DNA of 51,919 bases, counting the filler, from Sphacelaria rigidula (taxonomy: Eukaryota), in assembly GCA_964200075.2 (NCBI GenBank). It is 3 parts of 3 records of this genome, joined end to end, with 100 filler letters (N's around TTAATTAATTAA, not from the genome) between each part and the next. Parts side by side here need not be neighbours in the genome. Positions count along the whole stretch, not along the records: positions 1 to 17,242 come from CAXNAA020001132.1; 2 more parts are not named here. One strand, 5' to 3'. The first letter of the stretch is position 1. Each line of letters opens with the position of its first letter. The notes beneath the pieces were generated by a model that saw only the letters and a list, made by a program, of their open reading frames with translations, searched no databases and was not told the origin of the DNA. A program made the translations under genes and the position numbers. Below are positions 1 through 34,682 of this stretch, one piece after another.

Positions 1-1
1 T

Positions 2-334
2 TTAGTTACTTTATTTTTACCAGCAGGAACATCTTTAGCTTTAAGCTTTTTATTAATTCCTGTAGAAATTTTATCGTATTTTTTTAAACCAGTGAGTTTG
101 GGTGTACGTTTATTTGCTAATCTTATGGCAGGTCATACGCTATTGAAAGTTATTATTGGTTTTAGTTGGGCTTTATTAGGGGCCGGGGGTATTCTCTTTA
201 TTTTTTATTTATTACCTTTAGCTGCTATTGTAATTTTGTTTGTTTTAGAAACAGCTGTTTCTGTTATACAGTCTTATGTTTTTACAATACTAATTACTAT
301 ATATTTAAATGACGTTATTAGTTTAAGTCATTAA
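2..334 (+). CDS. atp6: ATP synthase F0 subunit a, 3' part (5' end outside the window)
   Basis: Frame is open from position 2: LFLPAGTSLALSFLLIPVEILSYFFKPVSLGVRLFANLMAGHTLLK...LETAVSVIQSYVFTIL. Contains the canonical RLFAN.MAGH motif. Confidence 0.97.
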   Translation, partial: LVTLFLPAGTSLALSFLLIPVEILSYFFKPVSLGVRLFANLMAGHTLLKVIIGFSWALLGAGGILFIFYLLPLAAIVILFVLETAVSVIQSYVFTILITIYLNDVISLSH

Positions 335-435
335 TTATAAGTTTAGTTATTTAACTTCCATATTAGGTGATGGTCTCATTTTTTTGTAAATACGTAAAAA
401 CCTTTTTATTTTAAAATTAATTTTATATATTGAAC

Positions 436-507
436 GCAATATAGCAATAATACACGTATAGTGTGTTAATTTAAGGGCTTCTGTAGGTTCAATACCTACG
501 TATTGCA
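436..507 (+). ncRNA. tRNA-like element (pseudo-tRNA or t-element) immediately upstream of nad2
   Basis: 7-bp acceptor stem GCAATAT/GTATTGC plus discriminator A, perfect T-arm GTAGG-TTCAATA-CCTAC, 72 nt total. The D and anticodon arms are replaced by a single hairpin (TAATACAC-GTATA-GTGTGTTA); no assignable anticodon. Confidence 0.6.
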
Positions 508-508
508 T

Positions 509-2101
509 ATGAATAAGGTTAATTTTTTATTATCTCAAAATGATGTGGTAGGTTTATTACCCGAATTATTTTTGGCAATAGCTTTTTTAATTGTTTTAAT
601 TCATGGAAGTTCTCAATTAATTTTAGCTACTCGCTTATATACATATATTATACCAAGTATTTCTCGTTTAACATTAGTTATTTTAGCTTTAAGTGTTATT
701 CTAATCTGCAATAATCCAGTTATAAATCAAACTTTATGGGGTGGTACCTTTATTTTAGATTGTTTAGGCCTATCTTTAAAAGCTTTTGTTGTTATCATTA
801 TGTTCTTATGTGTATTAGTTAGTGAAGATTACCTTTATTTAGCTCGCATACGTGCTTATGAAATTTTTGTGTTCTTTATAGGTATTAGTTTAAGTTTATG
901 CTTATTAATTTCATCTTATGATACACTTTCTATTTATTTAAGTATAGAATTTTTATCTTTAATTTTTTATACTTTAGCTGCTTGGAAAAAAGATTCAGGT
1001 TTTTCTGCTGAAGCTAGTTTAAAATATTTTATTCTTGGTTCTTTGGCTTCTACTTTTTATTTGTTTGGGGCGTCTTTAATTTATTTTTCTACTGGAACTA
1101 CAAATTTAGGGTCATTATGTTTATTGCTTGATAGTATGTCCACGGGTTTTAACGTTACAGATTATCAAGATCCTTGGTTTTTTGTTTTTAATTCTTTTAA
1201 AAGTTCACCTTGGGTTAATTGGTATGGTTTTGAATGGTTTGATATAGCTCCTTCTACTATTCTTTATATCGGTTTTTTGTTTTTGGGCTCAGCTTTACTT
1301 TTTAAATTAGGTGTGGCTCCTTATCATTTTTGGGTTGCAGACGTTTACGAAGGTGTTCCTAGTTTAGTTAGCTTAATTTTTGCATCTGTTCCAAAACTTG
1401 CTATTTTTATTGTGTTATCACGTATAGTTTTTATTAGCTCATGGTCTTTTTTTATTGTTTTATGGAAAATGCTTTTTAGCGTATGTTGTCTTTTAAGTTT
1501 CTTTTTTGGTTGTATCGGAGGTTTAGGTGAAATTAAATTAAAAAGAATTTTTGCTTTTAGTGGTATTGGTCATATAGGATTTGTTTGTGCTGGCATTTCA
1601 TGCGGTAGTATTGAAGGTGTACAATCTATGTTTTTCTATTTGTTAATTTATACAGTAACTGCAGTTTTCTTATGGACTTTTGTTTTGTGCCTTAGTCCTT
1701 TAAAGAAAAAATGGTTGTCATTAGTTGACTGCGTAGGTATTGTACAGTCAAACCCTATTCTTGGGTTAACCACCTGTTTGATGATATTTTCTCTAGCAGG
1801 TATACCCCCGTTTGGTGGTTTTTTTGCTAAAGTTTTTGTGTTTGTTGCTTTAATTTCTAACTCTTCTTTTTATATTGCCTTTTTTGCTGTTTTAACTAGT
1901 GTTATTTCTGCTTTCTACTATTTACGTTTAATAAAAATTCTTTTTTTTGAGAAAAGCCACCAATGGTTTTTTTTAAATCCTTTGTCTAAATCTTATGCAT
2001 TAGTACTTGGAATTACTTCGTTCAGTGTTTTATTCTTTGTAATTAATCCAACGTTTTTGTATCTATTTACTTATAAGTTAAGTTTAAATTTATTTATTTA
2101 A
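509..2101 (+). CDS. nad2: NADH dehydrogenase subunit 2
   Basis: Motifs LLPELFL, EASLKYFILGS, FKLGVAPYHFWVADVYEG, FSLAGIPPFGGFFAK and AFYYLRLIK. ATG at 509 is preferred over the TTG at 503, which lies inside the tRNA-like stem. Confidence 0.97.
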   Translation: MNKVNFLLSQNDVVGLLPELFLAIAFLIVLIHGSSQLILATRLYTYIIPSISRLTLVILALSVILICNNPVINQTLWGGTFILDCLGLSLKAFVVIIMFLCVLVSEDYLYLARIRAYEIFVFFIGISLSLCLLISSYDTLSIYLSIEFLSLIFYTLAAWKKDSGFSAEASLKYFILGSLASTFYLFGASLIYFSTGTTNLGSLCLLLDSMSTGFNVTDYQDPWFFVFNSFKSSPWVNWYGFEWFDIAPSTILYIGFLFLGSALLFKLGVAPYHFWVADVYEGVPSLVSLIFASVPKLAIFIVLSRIVFISSWSFFIVLWKMLFSVCCLLSFFFGCIGGLGEIKLKRIFAFSGIGHIGFVCAGISCGSIEGVQSMFFYLLIYTVTAVFLWTFVLCLSPLKKKWLSLVDCVGIVQSNPILGLTTCLMIFSLAGIPPFGGFFAKVFVFVALISNSSFYIAFFAVLTSVISAFYYLRLIKILFFEKSHQWFFLNPLSKSYALVLGITSFSVLFFVINPTFLYLFTYKLSLNLFI

Positions 2102-2151
2102 AAATATTTTTTTATTGTTCATTAATATTAAAGCATTAAAATATTAATTAA

Positions 2152-2223
2152 GGGCTTGTAACTCAGTGGTAGAGTGTGTGCCTGATAAGCGTAAAGTCAG
2201 TCGTTCAACTCGACTCTGGCCCA
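2152..2223 (+). tRNA. trnI: tRNA-Ile(GAT)
   Basis: Cloverleaf: acceptor GGGCTTG/CTGGCCC (one T-T mismatch), D-stem ACTC/GAGT, anticodon arm TGTGC-CTGATAA-GCGTA, T-arm AGTCG-TTCAACT-CGACT. Confidence 0.95.
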
Positions 2224-2237
2224 TATAAATTTATTTT

Positions 2238-2310
2238 GCATTCTTAGCTTATTGGATAGAGCACTAGTCTTCTAAACTGGGGGTGATAGGTTCGAATCCT
2301 ATAGAATGCG
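2238..2310 (+). tRNA. trnR: tRNA-Arg(TCT)
   Basis: Acceptor GCATTCT/AGAATGC, D-stem GCTT/GAGC, anticodon arm CTAGT-CTTCTAA-ACTGG, T-arm ATAGG-TTCGAAT-CCTAT. Confidence 0.96.
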
Positions 2311-2370
2311 TATACATAAAAGTATATTTTTTAAAGTAACTTTAAAAAATCAAATTATTTTAATTAATAT

Positions 2371-2511
2371 ATGCCTCAATTCGATATTTTATGTTTCTTT
2401 AGCCAAACTTTTTGGGTCTTTATCTTTTTTAATAGCGCTTATTGTATTCTTATTAGTACAAATTTGTGCAATTTAACAAGCATTTTTAAAGTACGAAATA
2501 TACTTTTATAA
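2371..2511 (+). CDS. atp8: ATP synthase subunit 8 (46 aa; absent from the supplied ORF track)
   Basis: Hand translation MPQFDILCFFSQTFWVFIFFNSAYCILISTNLCNLTSIFKVRNILL*. Shows the diagnostic MPQ(F/L)D start, a Q.FW motif, one hydrophobic stretch and a basic KVR tail. Confidence 0.92.
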   Translation: MPQFDILCFFSQTFWVFIFFNSAYCILISTNLCNLTSIFKVRNILL

Positions 2512-2715
2512 TATATGTATATATTTATTTAAGGTTCGTCTTAATATCAAATAGTTAAAAATTTCTTACTGCAAATTACGTATATTAGAGCATAATTTAT
2601 AAGTTTTTATTTCCCATATAATGTTTTATTTATTTAAGTTTTAGGGAATAATAGTAAACTATAAAGAGTTATTTTAATTATTATTTTTGAGGTAAAATAA
2701 AGGGCTTAAATAATT

Positions 2716-3591
2716 ATGTCTGTTTTAATGTATATTCTTATATTTTTTATTTTATTTACATGTAATATTTCTTTAGCAAAAACAGTAGCTCAAAGTAACT
2801 GGCAAACGGGTTTTCAAGATCCGGCAACTCCTATTATGGAAGGTATTATTTACTTTAATAACCAGTTAATGTTTTTAATGATATTTATAGCTTGCTTTGT
2901 AGGGTGGTTACTGTTTAAAACTATTGTATATTATAGTGATATTAATTTTTTTAATAATACTAATTCGTCTGTAGTACGTGGGCAATCAACGCATTCTACA
3001 TTGCTTGAGATTGTATGGACTATTAGTCCAGCTGCATTATTAATGCTTATTGGTTTACCTTCCTTTTCTTTACTTTACTCTATGGATGAGACAGTAGATC
3101 CTTCTCTTACTTTGAAGGTTATCGGTCACCAATGGTATTGGTCTTATGAATACTCAGATTATGTTAATCAAATTGCAGAATCCAATGAGGAAAATATTAC
3201 TAAAGTAAAAGGTATTAAATTTGATTCTTATCTAGTTCCAGAAGAAGAGTTAATGATACCTAAACCTTATAAGTCAGTTAAAGGTGCTAATGTTTTAAGA
3301 TTATTAGAGGTGGATAATCGAGTTGTTCTTCCTATTTATACGCATATTCGAGCTCTTGTTACTGGTGCAGATGTACTTCACTCTTGGGCTATTCCAAGTT
3401 TAGGTGTAAAAGTAGATTCTTGTCCTGGTAGGTTAAATCAAATTTTTTTATTTTTAAAACGAGATGGAGTTTTTTATGGTCAATGTAGTGAAATTTGTGG
3501 TGTTAATCATGGATTTATGCCTATTGTAGTTAAAGGTGTGCCTTTAGAAAAGTATATTGTTTGGATTAGCCAAAGACTAAAAGATTCTTAA
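2716..3591 (+). CDS. cox2: Cytochrome c oxidase subunit 2
   Basis: Motifs GFQDPATPIMEG, GHQWYWSYEY, LLEVDNR and DVLHSW, plus the CuA motif CSEICGVNHGFM. Confidence 0.98.
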   Translation: MSVLMYILIFFILFTCNISLAKTVAQSNWQTGFQDPATPIMEGIIYFNNQLMFLMIFIACFVGWLLFKTIVYYSDINFFNNTNSSVVRGQSTHSTLLEIVWTISPAALLMLIGLPSFSLLYSMDETVDPSLTLKVIGHQWYWSYEYSDYVNQIAESNEENITKVKGIKFDSYLVPEEELMIPKPYKSVKGANVLRLLEVDNRVVLPIYTHIRALVTGADVLHSWAIPSLGVKVDSCPGRLNQIFLFLKRDGVFYGQCSEICGVNHGFMPIVVKGVPLEKYIVWISQRLKDS

Positions 3592-3597
3592 TTATAT

Positions 3598-4120
3598 ATG
3601 ATTATGACTAATACAAATCTTCAGCGTCATTCATTTCATTTAGTTGATCCAAGTCCTTGGCCTTTAGTTACGGCAATGGGGGTTTTAAGTATGGTTTTTG
3701 GTGGTGTAATGGTGTTAAATTATTTTGATGGAGGTAAAAATCTTTTGATTTTAGGTTTAATAACTACTATATTGTCTGCGGGCATTTGGTGGCGTGATAT
3801 TGTGCGTGAAGCTTTATTTGAAGGATATCATACTTCGATAGTTCAAAATGGGTTGCGTTTAGGTATGATTTTATTTATTGGTTCTGAAATAATGTTTTTT
3901 TTTGCTTTTTTTTGGGCTTTCTTTACTTCTTCTCTTTCCCCCGTTTTTAATATAGGAGGTGTTTGGCCTCCTGTTGGGGTTAAGGTTATTAGTCCTTGGG
4001 ATTTGCCCCTATTAAACACTATTCTTTTGCTTTCTTCAGGAGCTTCTATTACTTGGGCCCATCATTCTATTGTAGGTGGTTTTAAGGTAGAGGCGGAAAA
4101 TGGTTTATTATTGACTTTAT
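3598..4120 (+). CDS. cox3: Cytochrome c oxidase subunit 3, 5' part (cut by the N gap at 4121-4128)
   Basis: Motifs HSFHLVDPSPWP, WWRDIVRE, GMILFIGSEIMFFFAFFWAFF and PLLNTILLLSSGASITWAHH. Sequence after the gap is not Cox3-like. Confidence 0.97.
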
Positions 4121-4223
4121 NNNNNNNNATCCGGAAAATAGAAAATTTTAAATATACTTGAATCGTATTATGTTATTGTTATAGTATTTATTTATTTTCT
4201 AGGATACACAGATATTATAATAA

Positions 4224-4630
4224 ATGTTGAATACTTATTTGGATAATTCATCTTTTGATTATAAGTATCGACAACTTATAATTAAATATGATAAAAATAA
4301 TCCTAAATTTGTATATACAAATTTAGGATTATTTAGAAGGTTTTCTTTAATAACTAATAATTTTGTTAGGTGTCATAGATTAGAAAACTTAAGACAAAAA
4401 AATGCTGCTAATATGGCGAAAGTAAACAATGATCTTATATATGTTATTTCTGATATAGAGGTTTTAACGCTTTCTTATGAATTAATAAAATATAAACCTA
4501 GCAAAATGATGAATAGTCTAAAAAGTAAAACTTTTAGTAATATTGAATTATATTGGTTAAAATCATTAAGTGATCATATATTAGCAGGTAAAACTAATAA
4601 TTGTGGTTTGTCAAGATCTTTTGAAATTGG
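4224..4630 (+). pseudogene. Group II intron-encoded protein, segment 1 (RT-0 to start of RT-2), degenerate
   Basis: LIYVISDIEVLTLSYELIKYKPSKM...IELYWLKSLSDHILAGK resembles RT subdomain 0 of mitochondrial-lineage IEPs. It ends RSFEIG directly before a GTGCG. Confidence 0.75.
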
Positions 4631-5357
4631 GTGCGAGCTGTTGTTGTAAAATAAGAATTTGATATCTTATGTTAAATCAAGTGTGTTTAAAAATAGCCAC
4701 TTAACTAATGATGCAGGCAGGTAATCATTCCTGTATACCTAATTCTTTTAAAAAGGTATTGATCGCACATCCTTATTTATCAAGGGAGCGTTCTCACGTT
4801 TTTATATTTCGCGATAAATTATAATGTAAAATCGGAAGCGAGGGTGAAAGTAATTAACTTTTTAAAATACTTAAAATTTAATTATGAGAATGTTTTAGAT
4901 AAGTTTACAGAAATGAAACCGATGTTTTAAAACACCTTATACAAAAAAATCTGGGTTAATAGTATGTAAGGCTCGTCCTATCCAGTTTGATATTTAATCG
5001 AAATCATCCGTTATACAGAAAAGACTTGTGCAGTATAAGCTTTTTAAGAATCTTTAAAAAAGGATGAGGTGTAAAGTTGGGAACATATCTTTTATTATGC
5101 ATTATTGGAACAGAATAAGTGAATTTAAGCTCTACTTTTCTATTCATGCTATAGTAAGTAGTAGGATTCGCGCTATATGCTTCTATTCATTGCGATTTTG
5201 CAAAAAGCAAATGGGTACGCGTAATACGTATCATATGCCTACGTGTGAAGCCAAAATAACAACTGAATTATTATTTTGGTAGGAGCCGTATGAGTAGAGA
5301 TACTCATGTACGGTTTTGTAATGGCAGGATATATGGTAACATATGCTTGACCATAAG
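4631..5357 (+). mobile_element. Inner ORF-less group II intron (IIB-like geometry) inserted in the IEP ORF
   Basis: 5' GTGCGA. Domain V at 5283-5316 (GAGCCGTATGAGTA-GAGA-TACTCA-TG-TACGGTTT). Domain VI ATGGCAGG/CTTG-A-CCAT with bulged A5350. Excision restores the frame as RSFEIG|NTKEKIIQKAL. A 3' end at 5351 or 5354 would also be in frame. Confidence 0.85.
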
Positions 5358-5722
5358 TAATACAAAAGAAAAAATTATTCAAAAAGCTTTGTGTTTAGTA
5401 TTAGAAGCTATTTGGTATTCTAATATTTCTAACAATTCAAATATTTTTTTGAATAAATTTAAATCTAACTTTAAAAATGTTCCTTGGGTTATTCGTATTG
5501 ATTTATCTAATTTTTTTGATTCTCAAATGTTAATCTATTTGATAAGTAAACGGATAAATTGTAAAAAAACTATTGATCTTTTATCTCGATTTTTAGAAAA
5601 AGATTATTTTTGTTCAGGTAAAAAAGGTTTTGATAAAAATAATATATCATTCCCTAGTTACAGTACATTAAATTTTATTTTTTGTAATATTATTTTTTAT
5701 TAATTTGAACTTTATTTAAAGC
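5358..5722 (+). pseudogene. Group II IEP segment 2 (RT-2 to RT-4), degenerate, with in-frame TAA at 5701-5703
   Basis: KEKIIQKALCLVLEAI (RT-2), WVIRIDLSNFFDS (RT-3), KRINCKKTIDLLSRFLEKDY, and FPSYSTLNFIFCNIIFY*FELYL (degenerate RT-4). N gap at 5723-5730. Confidence 0.78.
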
Positions 5723-5732
5723 NNNNNNNNTA

Positions 5733-6302
5733 AATTCTTCTTCTTACTTGTTACATAATAAAACTAAATATTTTTTGCAAATGCGTCTATATGCTTCTTT
5801 GTATCCTCTTTTTTTAAACTTAAAAAAAAAGGGTTTTTTTAGATTAGTAAATGGATTTTTTAAGCCGACAAGTGTTCGAAGGTTCGTTAATTTTGAGCAT
5901 ATGGATATATTTATACTTTATAACAATATTATTCGTGGTATTTATTACTATTATTATTCTCATGCAAATAATCTAAAAAATATTAGACGTTTATTATATG
6001 GTCTTAAAGCATCTTGTGCTTTGACTTTAGCTTTTAAATTTAAAGTTTATTATCGTTCAAAAGCGTATAAGCAATTAGGGTCTAATCTTAATAGTAACGA
6101 TAATGTTAAACAATTTTTGTTTTTAGATTATAATATAAATAAAGTTGTAAATTATAAGTTAAAAACAGATTTCTTATTTTATCATAAATCTTTATGCTCA
6201 AAATTTTTTTACGCTTGTAAGTTTTATAGGCTTATTACAGTTTATAAATTTGGGTTTATTTCTTTTTGGTCGATGCAGTCATTGATGTTTAATCGTAAAT
6301 AA
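5733..6302 (+). pseudogene. Group II IEP segment 3, maturase domain X (no endonuclease domain seen)
   Basis: YNNIIRGIYYYYYSHANNLKNIRRLLYGLKASCALTLAFKFK...KAYKQLG matches the domain-X pattern (iRGi.nYY...N...l.y.lk.ScalTLa.K). Confidence 0.85.
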
Positions 6303-7101
6303 AAAATATTTTTATAGTATTCTAAGAGAAAATTTTATAAGTTTATATTATTAAAAATTTGGTAATAGCATATTTTTAGTTCTTGTTTAATTTTTATTCT
6401 AGCTAGCCATATGATAAGAGATTATCACGTATGGTTTTGTGGGCAAATATACTGGTTAAAAGCTTTGTGAAGTTAAAACCCTCGCCATGTAAGGGTTCGT
6501 ATAAGGGTTAAAGATCCGCCCAAGAAGCAGCATAACTCAAAGAATGCGTACGTCGTATATTCGGGGTGATGAGTGTGAACCCAGCCATGCGCCGAAATAA
6601 AAAAACAAAAATATACCGGAATGCCCTCCCTATATTTGTGATTTGCCCGCACTTGGCCCGCATATAAAATCATTGCAATTTTGAACGGAAACTTTGCTCG
6701 TGCATTTCTCGACCGTGGGTAAAGGCACCCCCATGAAACTTGGCGCAATAGTTGGATACTACACAGGCAATACTCTATATGCCCCGGAAGACAGCTCCTT
6801 TCGGCCAACGAGCAAATTAAACTACGCAAAAACCGATGTACCGTCGGTAGACCCTCGAGACGGCTATCTCGCAGCCCAGTTTCTGTGCACTGTGAGTGAA
6901 TGCATATCTGGAAATGGTGGTGCACTCACTTTCACATCATGATCACCTGGGAGGGTACTGTGCTAGCAAACAAGCATAGATCAGTACTGGCACACCCTCT
7001 GGATAATGACAATATATAGAGAAGTCACTCCGGTATCGTCTGTAGAGATACTCAGCGCGCGCTGTTGTCGCTGCAAGGCGCTTAAACTTCGGTCATACGT
7101 A

Positions 7102-7129
7102 GTTGATTGATTGATTGATTGATTGATTG
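7102..7129. repeat. (GATT)n microsatellite
   Basis: TTGATTGATTGATTGATTGATTGATTG read directly from the sequence. Confidence 0.95.
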
Positions 7130-8295
7130 TCGCACTTTATGTAAACCACAATCAACACGCCCATGCATCTGGATTTGAGGTTGGGCGTTGCAACAGTGCG
7201 TGAGGGGATGAAAAGTGCTAGGATTCTGTTCCGAAACAGCTGTTTTTAAAATTTACTTCGGAGGAAGACCGGAACCAGAGTGTACAGTATTGCAGTACAA
7301 CAATATCATACGTCGTCCAGGCGCCGAACTTTGCCAATAGCGATCTGTGTGTACACTGATCGAAACTGTATCGTTTCGACGACGGTAGCCGACATCGCCC
7401 TGAGAGAAATAAATATATTATGTTCTTTTGCTCGCGCGTATCTAGCAGCGGATTTTCAATAGGCAAGAAGCTAGGTAGGATGCAGCAGGTGGCACCCAAC
7501 ACGGTACCGCCGTTACGAGTACTACGCTGTACTCGTACTTGTACGTCACATAATAACCCCAGAACGGTCAGTCACACCAGCTGTGGTAACAACAGAGCTC
7601 CTCGATAGCTGCCTGAACTGCTGGGCAAAGAGAGCTAACCTTTATTCTCCATTATCAAATTAGATGAGTGATGTGTGACACTGACCTTCTAGCTTTCGCT
7701 GCTTGCTGATTCCCTCAGTAAGGAGTAGCCAAGTGCTGTTGCCGGCTGGTGAGCCCGTTTTTGCGGTGGGTCTCACCTATACGCTACGCGTAAACTCAGT
7801 CATAATCTACATTTTCGTTCACTAGTGAACGCATTAGCAGACGGTACGTGAGACTGCAAAGACGATGATGAATTCATCAGCGGAGGATGAGCGCCGCTTA
7901 TCCAGAGGAGGAAACGATACGTCGAATCGTGGCATGGTCAAAATCCACCAGGATCGTTCAATGCTCCAGACAGAGATCAAGAAATCCACAACTCATTATC
8001 CTTACAAGGCAAGCCAAGCAGGTGGTGGTTCTTTTCTACACTACGTTACAACATAGTTCGAATTACATCATAGACAACAGTGCAACACCCCTGGTATCCT
8101 CGGTAGCGTAGGAATGCACTGATCACCTCGATCTTTTTGTACGTCGTTTGACAGAGACTATGGCGAGAGAATCCGTTACGCCATGGGTACATTTGTCCCC
8201 ACTTCTCGCGCAGATCGTTACTTCATCCCCCCCCCCTCTCTTGGTTTCTGCTCGGTCATGTGGCAATCATCCTTTTGATGGATAACTCGTAACAG

Positions 8296-17242: not shown

Positions 17243-17342
17243 NNNNNNNNNNNNNNNNNNNNNNNNNNNNNNNNNNNNNNNNNNNNTTAATTAATTAANN
17301 NNNNNNNNNNNNNNNNNNNNNNNNNNNNNNNNNNNNNNNNNN
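17243..17342. other. Artificial contig-joining linker
   Basis: N44-TTAATTAATTAA-N44, with stops in all six frames; an identical copy is at 34583-34682. Confidence 0.98.
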
Positions 17343-34582: not shown

Positions 34583-34682
34583 NNNNNNNNNNNNNNNNNN
34601 NNNNNNNNNNNNNNNNNNNNNNNNNNTTAATTAATTAANNNNNNNNNNNNNNNNNNNNNNNNNNNNNNNNNNNNNNNNNNNN
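34583..34682. other. Artificial contig-joining linker
   Basis: N44-TTAATTAATTAA-N44. Confidence 0.98.

What the first reader, a model, noticed from the sequence alone, without database searches (positions are those of the whole stretch)
4129..6452. Mitochondrial group II twintron: an ORF-less intron nested inside the maturase ORF of another group II intron
Seen: two domain V hairpins (5283-5316 and 6404-6437) but only one set of IEP fragments. A GTGCG at 4631 interrupts the ORF in RT subdomain 2. Removing 4631-5357 joins two different reading frames into RSFEIG-NTKEKIIQKAL, the exact spacing of the RPLGIxxxxD/EKIVQ motif. A candidate EBS1, TTAATT (4878-4883), can pair with the exon end AATTGG. 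Established: twintrons are known mainly from euglenid and cryptophyte plastids and some fungal, plant and prokaryotic cases. I do not recall one from brown-algal-lineage mitochondria, but could not search. Inference: the inner intron must splice before the maturase can be made, which could gate splicing of the outer intron and its host gene (possibly cox3) in an ordered cascade or feedback loop.
Basis: partly seen in the sequence, partly recalled or inferred. Interest (0 to 1): 0.85.

Follow-up and report, generated by a model that had tools for sequence, protein, structure and literature searches.

The report
Intron nested in a brown-algal maturase gene
A small self-splicing-type intron sits inside the helper-protein gene of a second, incomplete intron in brown-algal mitochondrial DNA; this layout is already known from plant and red-algal mitochondria, and the neighbouring cox3 gene is not the host.

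Summary

**Inner intron.** Window 4631-5357 has the ends of a complete ORF-less group II intron:
- GUGCG at its 5' end.
- An Rfam domain V/VI match of 52 bits, above the cut-off of 40.
- A bulged A at 5350, 7 nt before the 3' end.

Removing it joins two reading frames into one maturase-like protein. That protein aligns without a break to a relative's uninterrupted ORF and to a profile of 60 intron-encoded proteins. Two diverged relatives carry read-through of the same intron end, so the nesting is conserved.

**What is wrong in the finding.**
- Public contigs close both N gaps. The first holds only the rest of an uninterrupted cox3 plus 19 nt.
- cox3 is therefore not the host, and no outer-intron 5' half lies upstream.
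- The outer element is a 3' half: ORF, domain V and domain VI.
- In the contigs it runs on into sequence that reads like cox1. The window instead switches at 6480/6481 to GC-rich, nuclear-like DNA.
- The host ORF also carries an in-frame TAA at 5701, so gating of a full-length maturase is doubtful in this genome.

No RNA data were available. A maturase-interrupting mitochondrial twintron is already described in Lycopodiaceae, so this is a new member of a known kind.

The parts
3598..4120 (+). cox3, first 174 codons plus one base. Context only, not the host gene.
   Evidence: Pfam COX3 E 7.5e-62, profile positions 1-163 of 258. The 174 residues are identical to the first 174 of a 270-aa protein labelled Sphacelaria rigidula.
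4121..4131 (.). 8-N assembly gap plus 3 unmatched bases. It hides 309 real letters: the rest of cox3 including its stop (290 nt) and a 19-nt spacer.
   Evidence: Contigs of runs X3 and X5 bridge 4120 to 4132 with 309 letters between. Loose ends read cox3 onward and end in its stop 19 letters before 4132. The C-terminus matches P0397.
4132..4223 (+). Spacer between cox3 and the ORF. It may be the remaining 5' side of outer domain IV. It is far too short to hold domains I-III.
   Evidence: Sequence and arithmetic. No GUGYG lies between the cox3 stop and 4224.
4224..4630 (+). Intron-encoded-protein ORF, piece A (N-terminal and RT0/RT1-like part).
   Evidence: ORF 4224-4649. It aligns to P0001 residues 1-~135 and to positions 94-204 of a 60-protein IEP profile, 66 bits.
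4295..4334 (.). Perfect 40-nt palindrome inside piece A. Public contigs break here.
   Evidence: Contig ends fall at 4305 and 4324 in all four runs.
4631..5357 (+). Inner ORF-less group II intron, 727 nt.
   Evidence: 5' GUGCG. Domains V and VI at its 3' end. The minimum-free-energy fold recovers both hairpins, z -2.78, 0 of 20 shuffles as stable. Removing it restores the frame and colinearity. An unrelated contig's intron matches 5278-5357 (11 of 80 letters differ) and diverges just after 5357.
5283..5316 (+). Inner domain V, a 34-nt hairpin with a GAGA loop.
   Evidence: Rfam RF00029 alignment. RF04356 scores 47.9 bits, below its cut-off of 61.
5321..5354 (+). Inner domain VI. The bulged A at 5350 is the predicted branch point, 7 nt before the 3' end.
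   Evidence: Rfam RF00029 structure line.
5358..5700 (+). IEP ORF, piece B (RT2-RT4-like). It is followed by an in-frame TAA at 5701-5703.
   Evidence: ORF. 75.7 bits on profile positions 231-353. P0396 and P0001 have Glu where the TAA stands. No difference from the window is listed there in any of the 4 runs.
5723..5732 (.). 8-N assembly gap plus 2 unmatched bases. It hides 260 real letters, which keep pieces B and C in one frame.
   Evidence: Record coordinates of single contigs in X1, X3 and X5. Relatives have 79-89 residues here, including a degenerate RT5.
5733..6302 (+). IEP ORF, piece C (maturase / domain X and a conserved C-terminal tail). Stop at 6300-6302.
   Evidence: Pfam PF01348 E 3e-18. 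Identity 74% to P0247, 59% to P0001 and 46% to P0246.
6404..6437 (+). Outer domain V. 26 of 34 bases are identical to the inner domain V.
   Evidence: Rfam RF00029 36.8 bits, RF04357 31.2 bits. Identity.
6441..6480 (+). 5' part of outer domain VI. It is cut off in the window.
   Evidence: Contigs of 4 of 4 runs continue after 6480 with other letters. Read by eye, these complete a helix with a bulged A 7 nt before a ...TAC end.
6481..6481 (.). Switch to GC-rich, nuclear-like DNA. It is not part of the element and is either a chimeric join or the edge of a nuclear copy.
   Evidence: GC rises from about 0.25 to 0.47-0.53. No laid contig follows the window across 6480/6481.

Best explanation
Window 1-6480 is mitochondrial DNA of a brown alga of the Sphacelariales. 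About 111 nt after a complete cox3 lies the 3' half of a group II intron. That half consists of a maturase-type intron-encoded ORF, then domain V and domain VI.

The ORF is itself interrupted, at the RT1/RT2 boundary, by a complete-looking 727-nt ORF-less group II intron (4631-5357). Excision of this inner intron, with branching at A5350, would join 4630 to 5358 and restore one reading frame. This is a twintron-type nesting.

**Shown:** the anatomy, the colinear join, contiguity in independent contigs, and conservation of the nesting in other species.

**Inferred:**
- The inner intron is actually spliced.
- The outer half-intron belongs to cox1, inserted after the codons for HPEVYI.
- The outer half-intron works with a 5' half encoded elsewhere.

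In this genome an in-frame TAA at 5701 means that a full-length protein cannot be made by ordinary translation. Here the nesting is therefore more likely a tolerated, half-fossil state, with only the domain X part still under constraint, than a working switch.
For: **Inner intron ends**
- GUGCG at 4631, one of 2 on the + strand in 6.5 kb.
- Domains V and VI score 52 bits against a cut-off of 40.
- The bulged A at 5350 lies 7 nt from the end.

**The join**
- The joined protein gives one BLASTP alignment to P0001 residues 1-234, 50% identity, E 1e-65.
- It gives one colinear domain of 136.7 bits on a profile of 60 IEPs from outside the clade. Piece A alone scores 66 bits and piece B alone 75.7 bits, on adjacent profile parts. 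The RT1/RT2 motif aligns without a gap.

**Conservation**
- The first 23 residues of P0246 match the read-through of window 5290-5358 at 18 of 23 positions. P0246 then continues as the protein.
- P0396 starts at the last codons of domain VI.
- P0001 and P0395 lack the insert.
- The four proteins form a clade with 100% SH-aLRT support in a tree of 65 rows.

**Contiguity**
- Single contigs of X1, X3 and X5 (3 of the 4 runs laid) cover 4305-5722, then 260 letters, then 5733-6480. X7 covers the same stretch in two separate contigs.

**Outer half**
- A PF01348 domain and a second domain V.
- cox3 is complete, with 309 letters in the gap.
- The 13 letters after the inferred outer 3' end read xTT ATT TTA CCT GG, i.e. 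LILPG.
- In 2 of 149 related IEPs (P0256, P0270) a fused cox1 exon ends at HPEVYI, the same site and phase.
Against: **Inner intron**
- Domains I-IV are not validated. No Rfam family other than the domain V/VI families matched at E<=10.
- EBS1 and IBS1 cannot be assigned above chance: 3 candidates against 5.1 +/- 2.3 in shuffles.
- Profile scores barely separate in-frame 3' ends: 137.4 bits for 5351, 136.7 for 5357, 132.2 for 5354.

**Host ORF**
- It has a TAA at 5701-5703.
- RVT_1 falls below its cut-off.
- The RT5 motif is degenerate in relatives.
- Splicing may therefore have no consequence for a protein here.

**Outer intron**
- It is not a complete intron in cis.
- Its cox1 assignment rests on 13 letters from a loose-end consensus.
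- The tree does not place the clade next to the cox1-site IEPs.

**Relative without the insert**
- P0001's uninterrupted ORF could come from genomic loss of the intron or from a spliced RNA contig. Its DNA could not be fetched.
Confidence: 0.7

Rival explanations
1. 'Zombie' nesting. The 727-nt insert is a fossil group II intron that is no longer excised. Piece A is dead. Whatever maturase activity remains comes from the downstream part, either B-C started from an internal start codon or domain X alone. The outer element does not depend on the inner one.
For: - TAA at 5701 in this genome.
- The only ORF on record for P0247 is 172 aa of domain X.
- In P0246 and in the window an ATG inside domain V opens a frame that reads through into the protein.
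- The RT motifs are degenerate.
- The concept is documented in plant mitochondria (PMC7049729, abstract).
Against: - Domains V and VI of the inner intron remain canonical, and their read-through is 18 of 23 identical in a relative whose protein is only 46% identical.
- Piece A plus piece B stays open for 250 codons in DNA of about 26% GC, and is 50% identical to P0001. That is not expected of long-dead sequence.
Confidence: 0.3
2. Assembly artefact. The apparent nesting comes from wrongly scaffolded pieces of different introns, or from the chimeric scaffold.
For: - The window has N gaps at 4121 and 5723 that hide 309 and 260 nt.
- It has an unsupported join to nuclear-like DNA at 6480/6481.
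Against: - Public contigs from 4 of 4 runs carry 4305-5722 in one piece, including both intron boundaries. Single contigs of 3 of them (X1, X3, X5) go on to 5733-6480 across the 260 letters.
- The best-holding runs may include the window's own source, so this is not fully independent.
- Proteins from other species, P0246 and P0396, show the same 3' boundary.
Confidence: 0.03
3. The window copy is a nuclear insertion of mitochondrial DNA (a NUMT), so what is seen here is a dead copy that says nothing about the organelle.
For: The mitochondrial stretch is joined without an N gap to about 45 kb of 47-53% GC DNA.
Against: - The same sequence, with 0-1 differences over 2.2 kb, is assembled at organelle-like depth in 4 runs. 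There, cox3 and the intron have equal depth.
- atp6, nad2, cox2 and cox3 are open in the window.
- Whether or not this copy is nuclear, it mirrors the organelle genome.
Confidence: 0.25

Closest known systems
atp9i87g2 twintron of Lycopodiaceae mitochondria (Zumkeller, Gerke & Knoop 2020, PMC7049729; abstract read)
   Same: [quoted passage not shown] In that case the internal intron splices first.
   Different: - Different kingdom and host gene.
- There the outer intron is complete in cis and splicing was shown.
- Here the outer 5' half is absent upstream, the host ORF has a stop codon, and there are no RNA data.
'Zombie' twintrons of lycophyte and hornwort mitochondria (same paper, abstract)
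   Same: A nested intron whose removal may no longer matter for the outer intron. This fits the degenerate ORF here.
   Different: It is not known here whether the inner intron is fossilised. Its domains V and VI look intact.
Porphyridium mitochondrial group II twintrons (PMC8742464; passages read)
   Same: Group II introns nested inside group II introns in an algal mitochondrial genome. One lies inside an intronic ORF (orf1166).
   Different: - Red alga, with recent copies of resident introns.
- Here the inner and outer domain V share 26 of 34 bases, so common origin is possible but not shown.
- Here the nesting is old, being shared by proteins only 46% identical.
Group II introns of brown-algal mitochondria (Pylaiella, Laminariales; cox1, cob and cox2 of Protohalopteris; PMC8290108, passages read)
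   Same: The same organelle lineage. The introns sit in cox1 or cob with degraded ORFs.
   Different: That paper has 0 occurrences of 'twintron'. No nested or split intron is described in the passages seen. Its supplements were not seen.
Group II intron-mediated trans-splicing of cox1 in Diphylleia rotans and Isochrysis galbana (PMC4779616, PMC9551565; search listing only)
   Same: cox1 pieces encoded apart and joined through a split group II intron. This is what the 3'-half layout here suggests.
   Different: Here only the 3' half is seen. The 5' half and the mature mRNA are unknown.

Membership tests
Group II intron (inner element, 4631-5357) | 5' end GUGYG | tested here: met
   GUGCG at 4631-4635. 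It occurs only twice on the + strand of 1-6480.
Group II intron (inner element, 4631-5357) | Domain V hairpin with the AGC triad, a two-base bulge and a GNRA loop | tested here: met
   Rfam RF00029, 52.0 bits against a cut-off of 40, full model 1-77.
Group II intron (inner element, 4631-5357) | Domain VI with a bulged A 7-8 nt before the 3' splice site | tested here: met
   A5350 is bulged in the Rfam alignment, 7 nt before 5357.
Group II intron (inner element, 4631-5357) | Domains I-IV with EBS1/IBS1 and EBS2/IBS2 pairings | tested here: inconclusive
   - The fold is more stable than shuffles (z -2.78), but no canonical domain I could be assigned.
- EBS1-like six-mers: 3 found, 5.1 +/- 2.3 expected.
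- No D1-D4 Rfam family matched.
Group II intron (inner element, 4631-5357) | Excision as a lariat with the exons joined in RNA | not testable with these tools
   No run on record as RNA was listed.
Twintron (intron within an intron) | The inner intron lies inside sequence that belongs to another intron | tested here: met
   It splits an ORF of the group II maturase family that is followed by its own domains V and VI.
Twintron (intron within an intron) | The outer intron is complete, with both splice sites between two exons of one gene | tested here: not met
   - The cox3 stop lies about 111 nt before the ORF, with no domains I-III and no 5' exon upstream.
- No cox1 is found anywhere in the window.
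- The 3' end lies beyond the window's mitochondrial part.
Twintron (intron within an intron) | Ordered splicing, inner before outer | not testable with these tools
   No RNA data.
Group II intron-encoded protein (RT/maturase) | Maturase (X) domain | tested here: met
   PF01348, E 3e-18, 66.6 bits against a cut-off of 20.8.
Group II intron-encoded protein (RT/maturase) | Reverse-transcriptase domain with a YADD active site | tested here: not met
   - RVT_1 scores 13.5 bits against a cut-off of 29.6.
- The window's own RT5 lies in the 260 hidden letters.
- At that place the closest relative P0396 has ...NYLFIGV, P0001 has YSND and P0246 has LADD.
Group II intron-encoded protein (RT/maturase) | One uninterrupted ORF | tested here: not met
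   It is split by the inner intron and also cut by the TAA at 5701-5703.
Trans-spliced (split) group II intron | A 3' half (part of domain IV, then V and VI) directly followed by a 3' exon | tested here: inconclusive
   Domains V and VI are present. Only 13 exon letters are seen in a loose-end consensus. They read LILPG in the phase of the cox1 site used by P0256 and P0270.
Trans-spliced (split) group II intron | A 5' exon with domains I-III encoded elsewhere, and a joined mature mRNA | not tested
   The rest of the organelle genome is not held, and the tool that fetches encoding contigs is closed.

The most novel reading that the evidence does not exclude
In Sphacelaria-like brown algae, cox1 is expressed through a split group II intron, spliced either in trans or over a very long distance in cis. 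The 3' half of that intron lies directly behind cox3. It carries a maturase gene that is itself interrupted by a second, evolutionarily conserved group II intron. This would be a split twintron, in which three RNA-processing events are needed for one respiratory gene.
Probability: 0.3. Interest if true: 0.75.

Novelty: new member of a known kind. Interest (0 to 1): 0.5.

Why it matters
**If the nesting is spliced.** It would be the first twintron I could find for brown-algal or stramenopile mitochondria. Three literature searches list none by title or abstract start, and most of those papers were seen only as listings. The nesting is shared by species whose proteins are only about 46% identical, and one related lineage lacks the insert. 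Together they offer a natural comparison of working, decaying and lost states.

**If the outer half-intron really serves cox1.** The locus would add a split cox1 intron to a lineage where none is reported.

**Practical points.**
- The scaffold is misleading. Its 8-N gaps hide 309 and 260 nt.
- Its mitochondrial part is fused to nuclear-like DNA.
- Annotation pipelines would wrongly infer an intron in cox3.

Tried and rejected
- **RNA evidence.** The look-up of sequencing runs listed 18 runs, and 0 are on record as RNA: 'no RNA holder listed'. In the four runs laid, all of them Logan contigs, no 4630|5358 joint was seen. cox3 and the intron have equal depth in X1, so these runs are probably DNA. 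This says nothing about splicing.
- **Own genome.** None is held.
- **Earlier findings.** Closed.
- **DNA of relatives.** The metagenome scan gave 5 loci, all distant (30-34% identity) and unused. The viral-contig scan gave none of 194 candidate stretches.
- **Rfam.** No D1-D4 or other group II family matched within 1-8000 at E<=10.
- **EBS1/EBS2.** The scan gave many chance-level candidates.
- **Host gene from phylogeny.** The clade's position among 65 rows is unresolved.
- **cox3 as host.** Rejected.
- **cox1 or the cox3 3' part elsewhere in the window.** No tblastn hit better than E 0.33.
- **Outer domain VI.** Folding it with its true 3' end was not done, because that needs letters not stored as a locus. 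It was read by eye only.
- **Supplements.** Those of the cited papers were not seen, and they may list introns not mentioned in the main texts.
Full report
**What the window is**

Bases 1-6480 are AT-rich (GC 0.25-0.36) and the rest is 0.40-0.57 GC. The AT-rich part encodes, in order:
- the end of atp6;
- nad2;
- tRNA-Ile and tRNA-Arg;
- cox2;
- the first 174 codons of cox3.

The best named matches of cox2 and cox3 are brown algae: Dictyopteris 74%, Protohalopteris 77% and Microzonia 75%. The 174 cox3 residues are identical to a 270-aa protein labelled Sphacelaria rigidula. The stretch is therefore mitochondrial DNA of a member of the Sphacelariales. N runs lie at 4121-4128 and 5723-5730.

**Checking the observation**

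- Rfam finds Intron_gpII at 5281-5356 (52.0 bits, cut-off 40). It is one of only 3 matches at gathering score in the whole window.
- A second Intron_gpII match lies at 6402-6485 (36.8 bits, below the cut-off).
- GTGCG at 4631 is one of two on the + strand of the mitochondrial part.
- ORF piece A (4224-4649) and piece B (5260-5703) lie in different frames. Piece C (5709-6302) carries Intron_maturas2 at E 3e-18. Piece B matches RVT_1 only weakly, at E 0.058.
- In the Rfam alignment, domain VI has a bulged A at 5350, 7 nt before 5357.

**The join**

Joining 4630 to 5358 in a script gives 250 open codons.
- They align in one piece to residues 1-234 of P0001 (50% identity, E 1e-65). P0001 is a 508-aa uninterrupted relative. 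Piece C aligns to its residues 328-507.
- On a profile built from 60 full-length intron-encoded proteins from outside this clade, piece A alone covers positions 94-204 (66 bits) and piece B alone covers 231-353 (75.7 bits).
- The join gives one colinear domain of 136.7 bits, with the RT1/RT2 motif aligned without a gap.
- Other in-frame 3' ends score 137.4 (5351), 132.2 (5354), 129.7 (5360) and 127.7 (5363) bits. The profile alone therefore does not fix the exact end.
- Two things favour 5357. One is the branch-point distance. The other is a contig from another replicon in runs X3 and X5, whose intron matches 5278-5357 (11 of 80 letters differ) and diverges directly after 5357.

**Conservation**

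A search of 1.84 billion representatives with P0001 gave 873 proteins at E<=0.001 and 13 at E<=1e-30.
- P0246 (466 aa) begins with 23 residues that are 18 of 23 identical to the translation of window 5290-5358, which is domains V and VI read through. It then continues as an intact protein.
- P0396 (403 aa) begins at the last codons of domain VI and is open to the end.
- P0001 and P0395 have no insert.
- In a tree of 65 rows the four proteins form a clade with 100% support, ordered (P0246,(P0001,(window,P0247))).
- The nesting is thus older than the split of these lineages. It was either lost in the P0001 lineage, or P0001 was called on spliced RNA. I could not fetch its contig.

**Closing the gaps**

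I laid Logan contigs of four runs on 3400-7400. These are probably DNA runs, because cox3 and the intron have equal depth.

*Gap at 4121.* Contigs of X3 and X5 put 309 letters between 4120 and 4132.
- The loose ends continue cox3 and end in its stop codon 19 letters before 4132.
- 290 nt for the rest of a 270-codon cox3 plus 19 nt makes exactly 309.
- cox3 is therefore complete and uninterrupted, as it is in P0126 and P0397.
- About 111 nt separate its stop from the ATG at 4224. That leaves no room for domains I-III, and cox3 is not the host.

*Gap at 5723.* Single contigs of X1, X3 and X5 put 260 letters between 5722 and 5733. This keeps pieces B and C in one frame (19 + 260 = 279 nt).

*After 6480.* All four runs continue with TGTTTTTTGACCCCTACTTATTTTACCTGG instead of the window's GC-rich sequence. 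One contig goes on for 4.5 kb. The window's join at 6480/6481 is therefore an assembly chimera or the edge of a nuclear copy.

**The outer intron**

This paragraph is my own reading by eye, not a computation.
- The first 17 of those 30 letters complete domain VI: GGG/CCC, a bulged A, then a further helix. They end in ...TAC, 7 nt after the A.
- The next 13 letters read xTT ATT TTA CCT GG, which is LILPG.
- Two of 149 related proteins (P0256, P0270) are fused to a cox1 exon that ends in HPEVYI, the same site and phase.
- No cox1 is present in the window.
- The outer element is therefore best read as the 3' half of a cox1 intron whose 5' half is elsewhere. It could be split and still used, or a relic.
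- A cox3 of the same 90% cluster sits on a contig of the same length (7614 nt) as P0001's longest contig. This hints that the cox3-ORF adjacency is shared.

**State of the host ORF**

- A TAA stands at 5701-5703 where P0396 and P0001 have Glu. No run differs from the window there.
- RT5 is degenerate in relatives.
- Domain X is well kept, at 74% identity to P0247.
- In this genome, inner-intron splicing cannot by itself yield a full-length maturase.

**Comparison with what is known**

- An internal group II intron that interrupts an intron-borne maturase and splices first is described for atp9 in Lycopodiaceae mitochondria. The same paper describes 'zombie' twintrons (PMC7049729, abstract).
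- Porphyridium mitochondria have five group II twintrons (PMC8742464, passages).
- Plastid twintrons in red algae, euglenids and cryptophytes are reviewed in PMC4476101 (passages).
- Brown-algal mitochondrial group II introns are known in cox1, cob, cox2 and rnl. The word 'twintron' does not occur in that survey (PMC8290108).
- Searches list no brown-algal or stramenopile mitochondrial twintron.

**Verdict**

A real, conserved nested intron. It is a new member of a known kind, with an open and more interesting question about a split cox1 intron.

Noticed in passing
window 6480/6481, and 6481-51919: The mitochondrial stretch is fused without an N gap to about 45 kb of 0.40-0.57 GC, nuclear-like DNA. 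None of the contigs laid follows the window across this point. It is either a scaffold chimera or a large, recent nuclear copy of mitochondrial DNA.
   Followed up: partly
window 4121-4128 and 5723-5730: The 8-N gaps are not sized. They hide 309 and 260 real letters, and the 2-3 bases next to each gap do not match the public contigs.
   Followed up: yes
window 4295-4334: A perfect 40-nt palindrome lies inside the maturase-like ORF. Public contigs of all four runs break there. Its function, if any, is unknown.
   Followed up: partly
window 5290-5358: The ATG inside inner domain V opens a frame that reads through domain VI and the 3' splice site into the protein. The same is seen in relative P0246. 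It could allow an N-terminally shortened protein from unspliced RNA, or it could be chance.
   Followed up: no
window 5278-5357, compared with a 2497-nt contig in runs X3 and X5: A related group II intron (domains V and VI, 69 of 80 letters identical) sits in a different, more GC-rich replicon at a different depth (34.6 and 9.4). It is followed by unrelated sequence. Its source organism is unknown.
   Followed up: no
window 7093-7136; 17243-17342 and 34583-34682: A (GATT)n microsatellite lies just inside the nuclear-like part. There are also two pairs of 44-N runs, each pair separated by 12 bases. These look like scaffolding marks.
   Followed up: no
window 1-4120: The gene order atp6-nad2-trnI-trnR-cox2-cox3 was not compared with any published map. 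A survey reports a rearranged order in another member of the Sphacelariales (PMC8290108).
   Followed up: no
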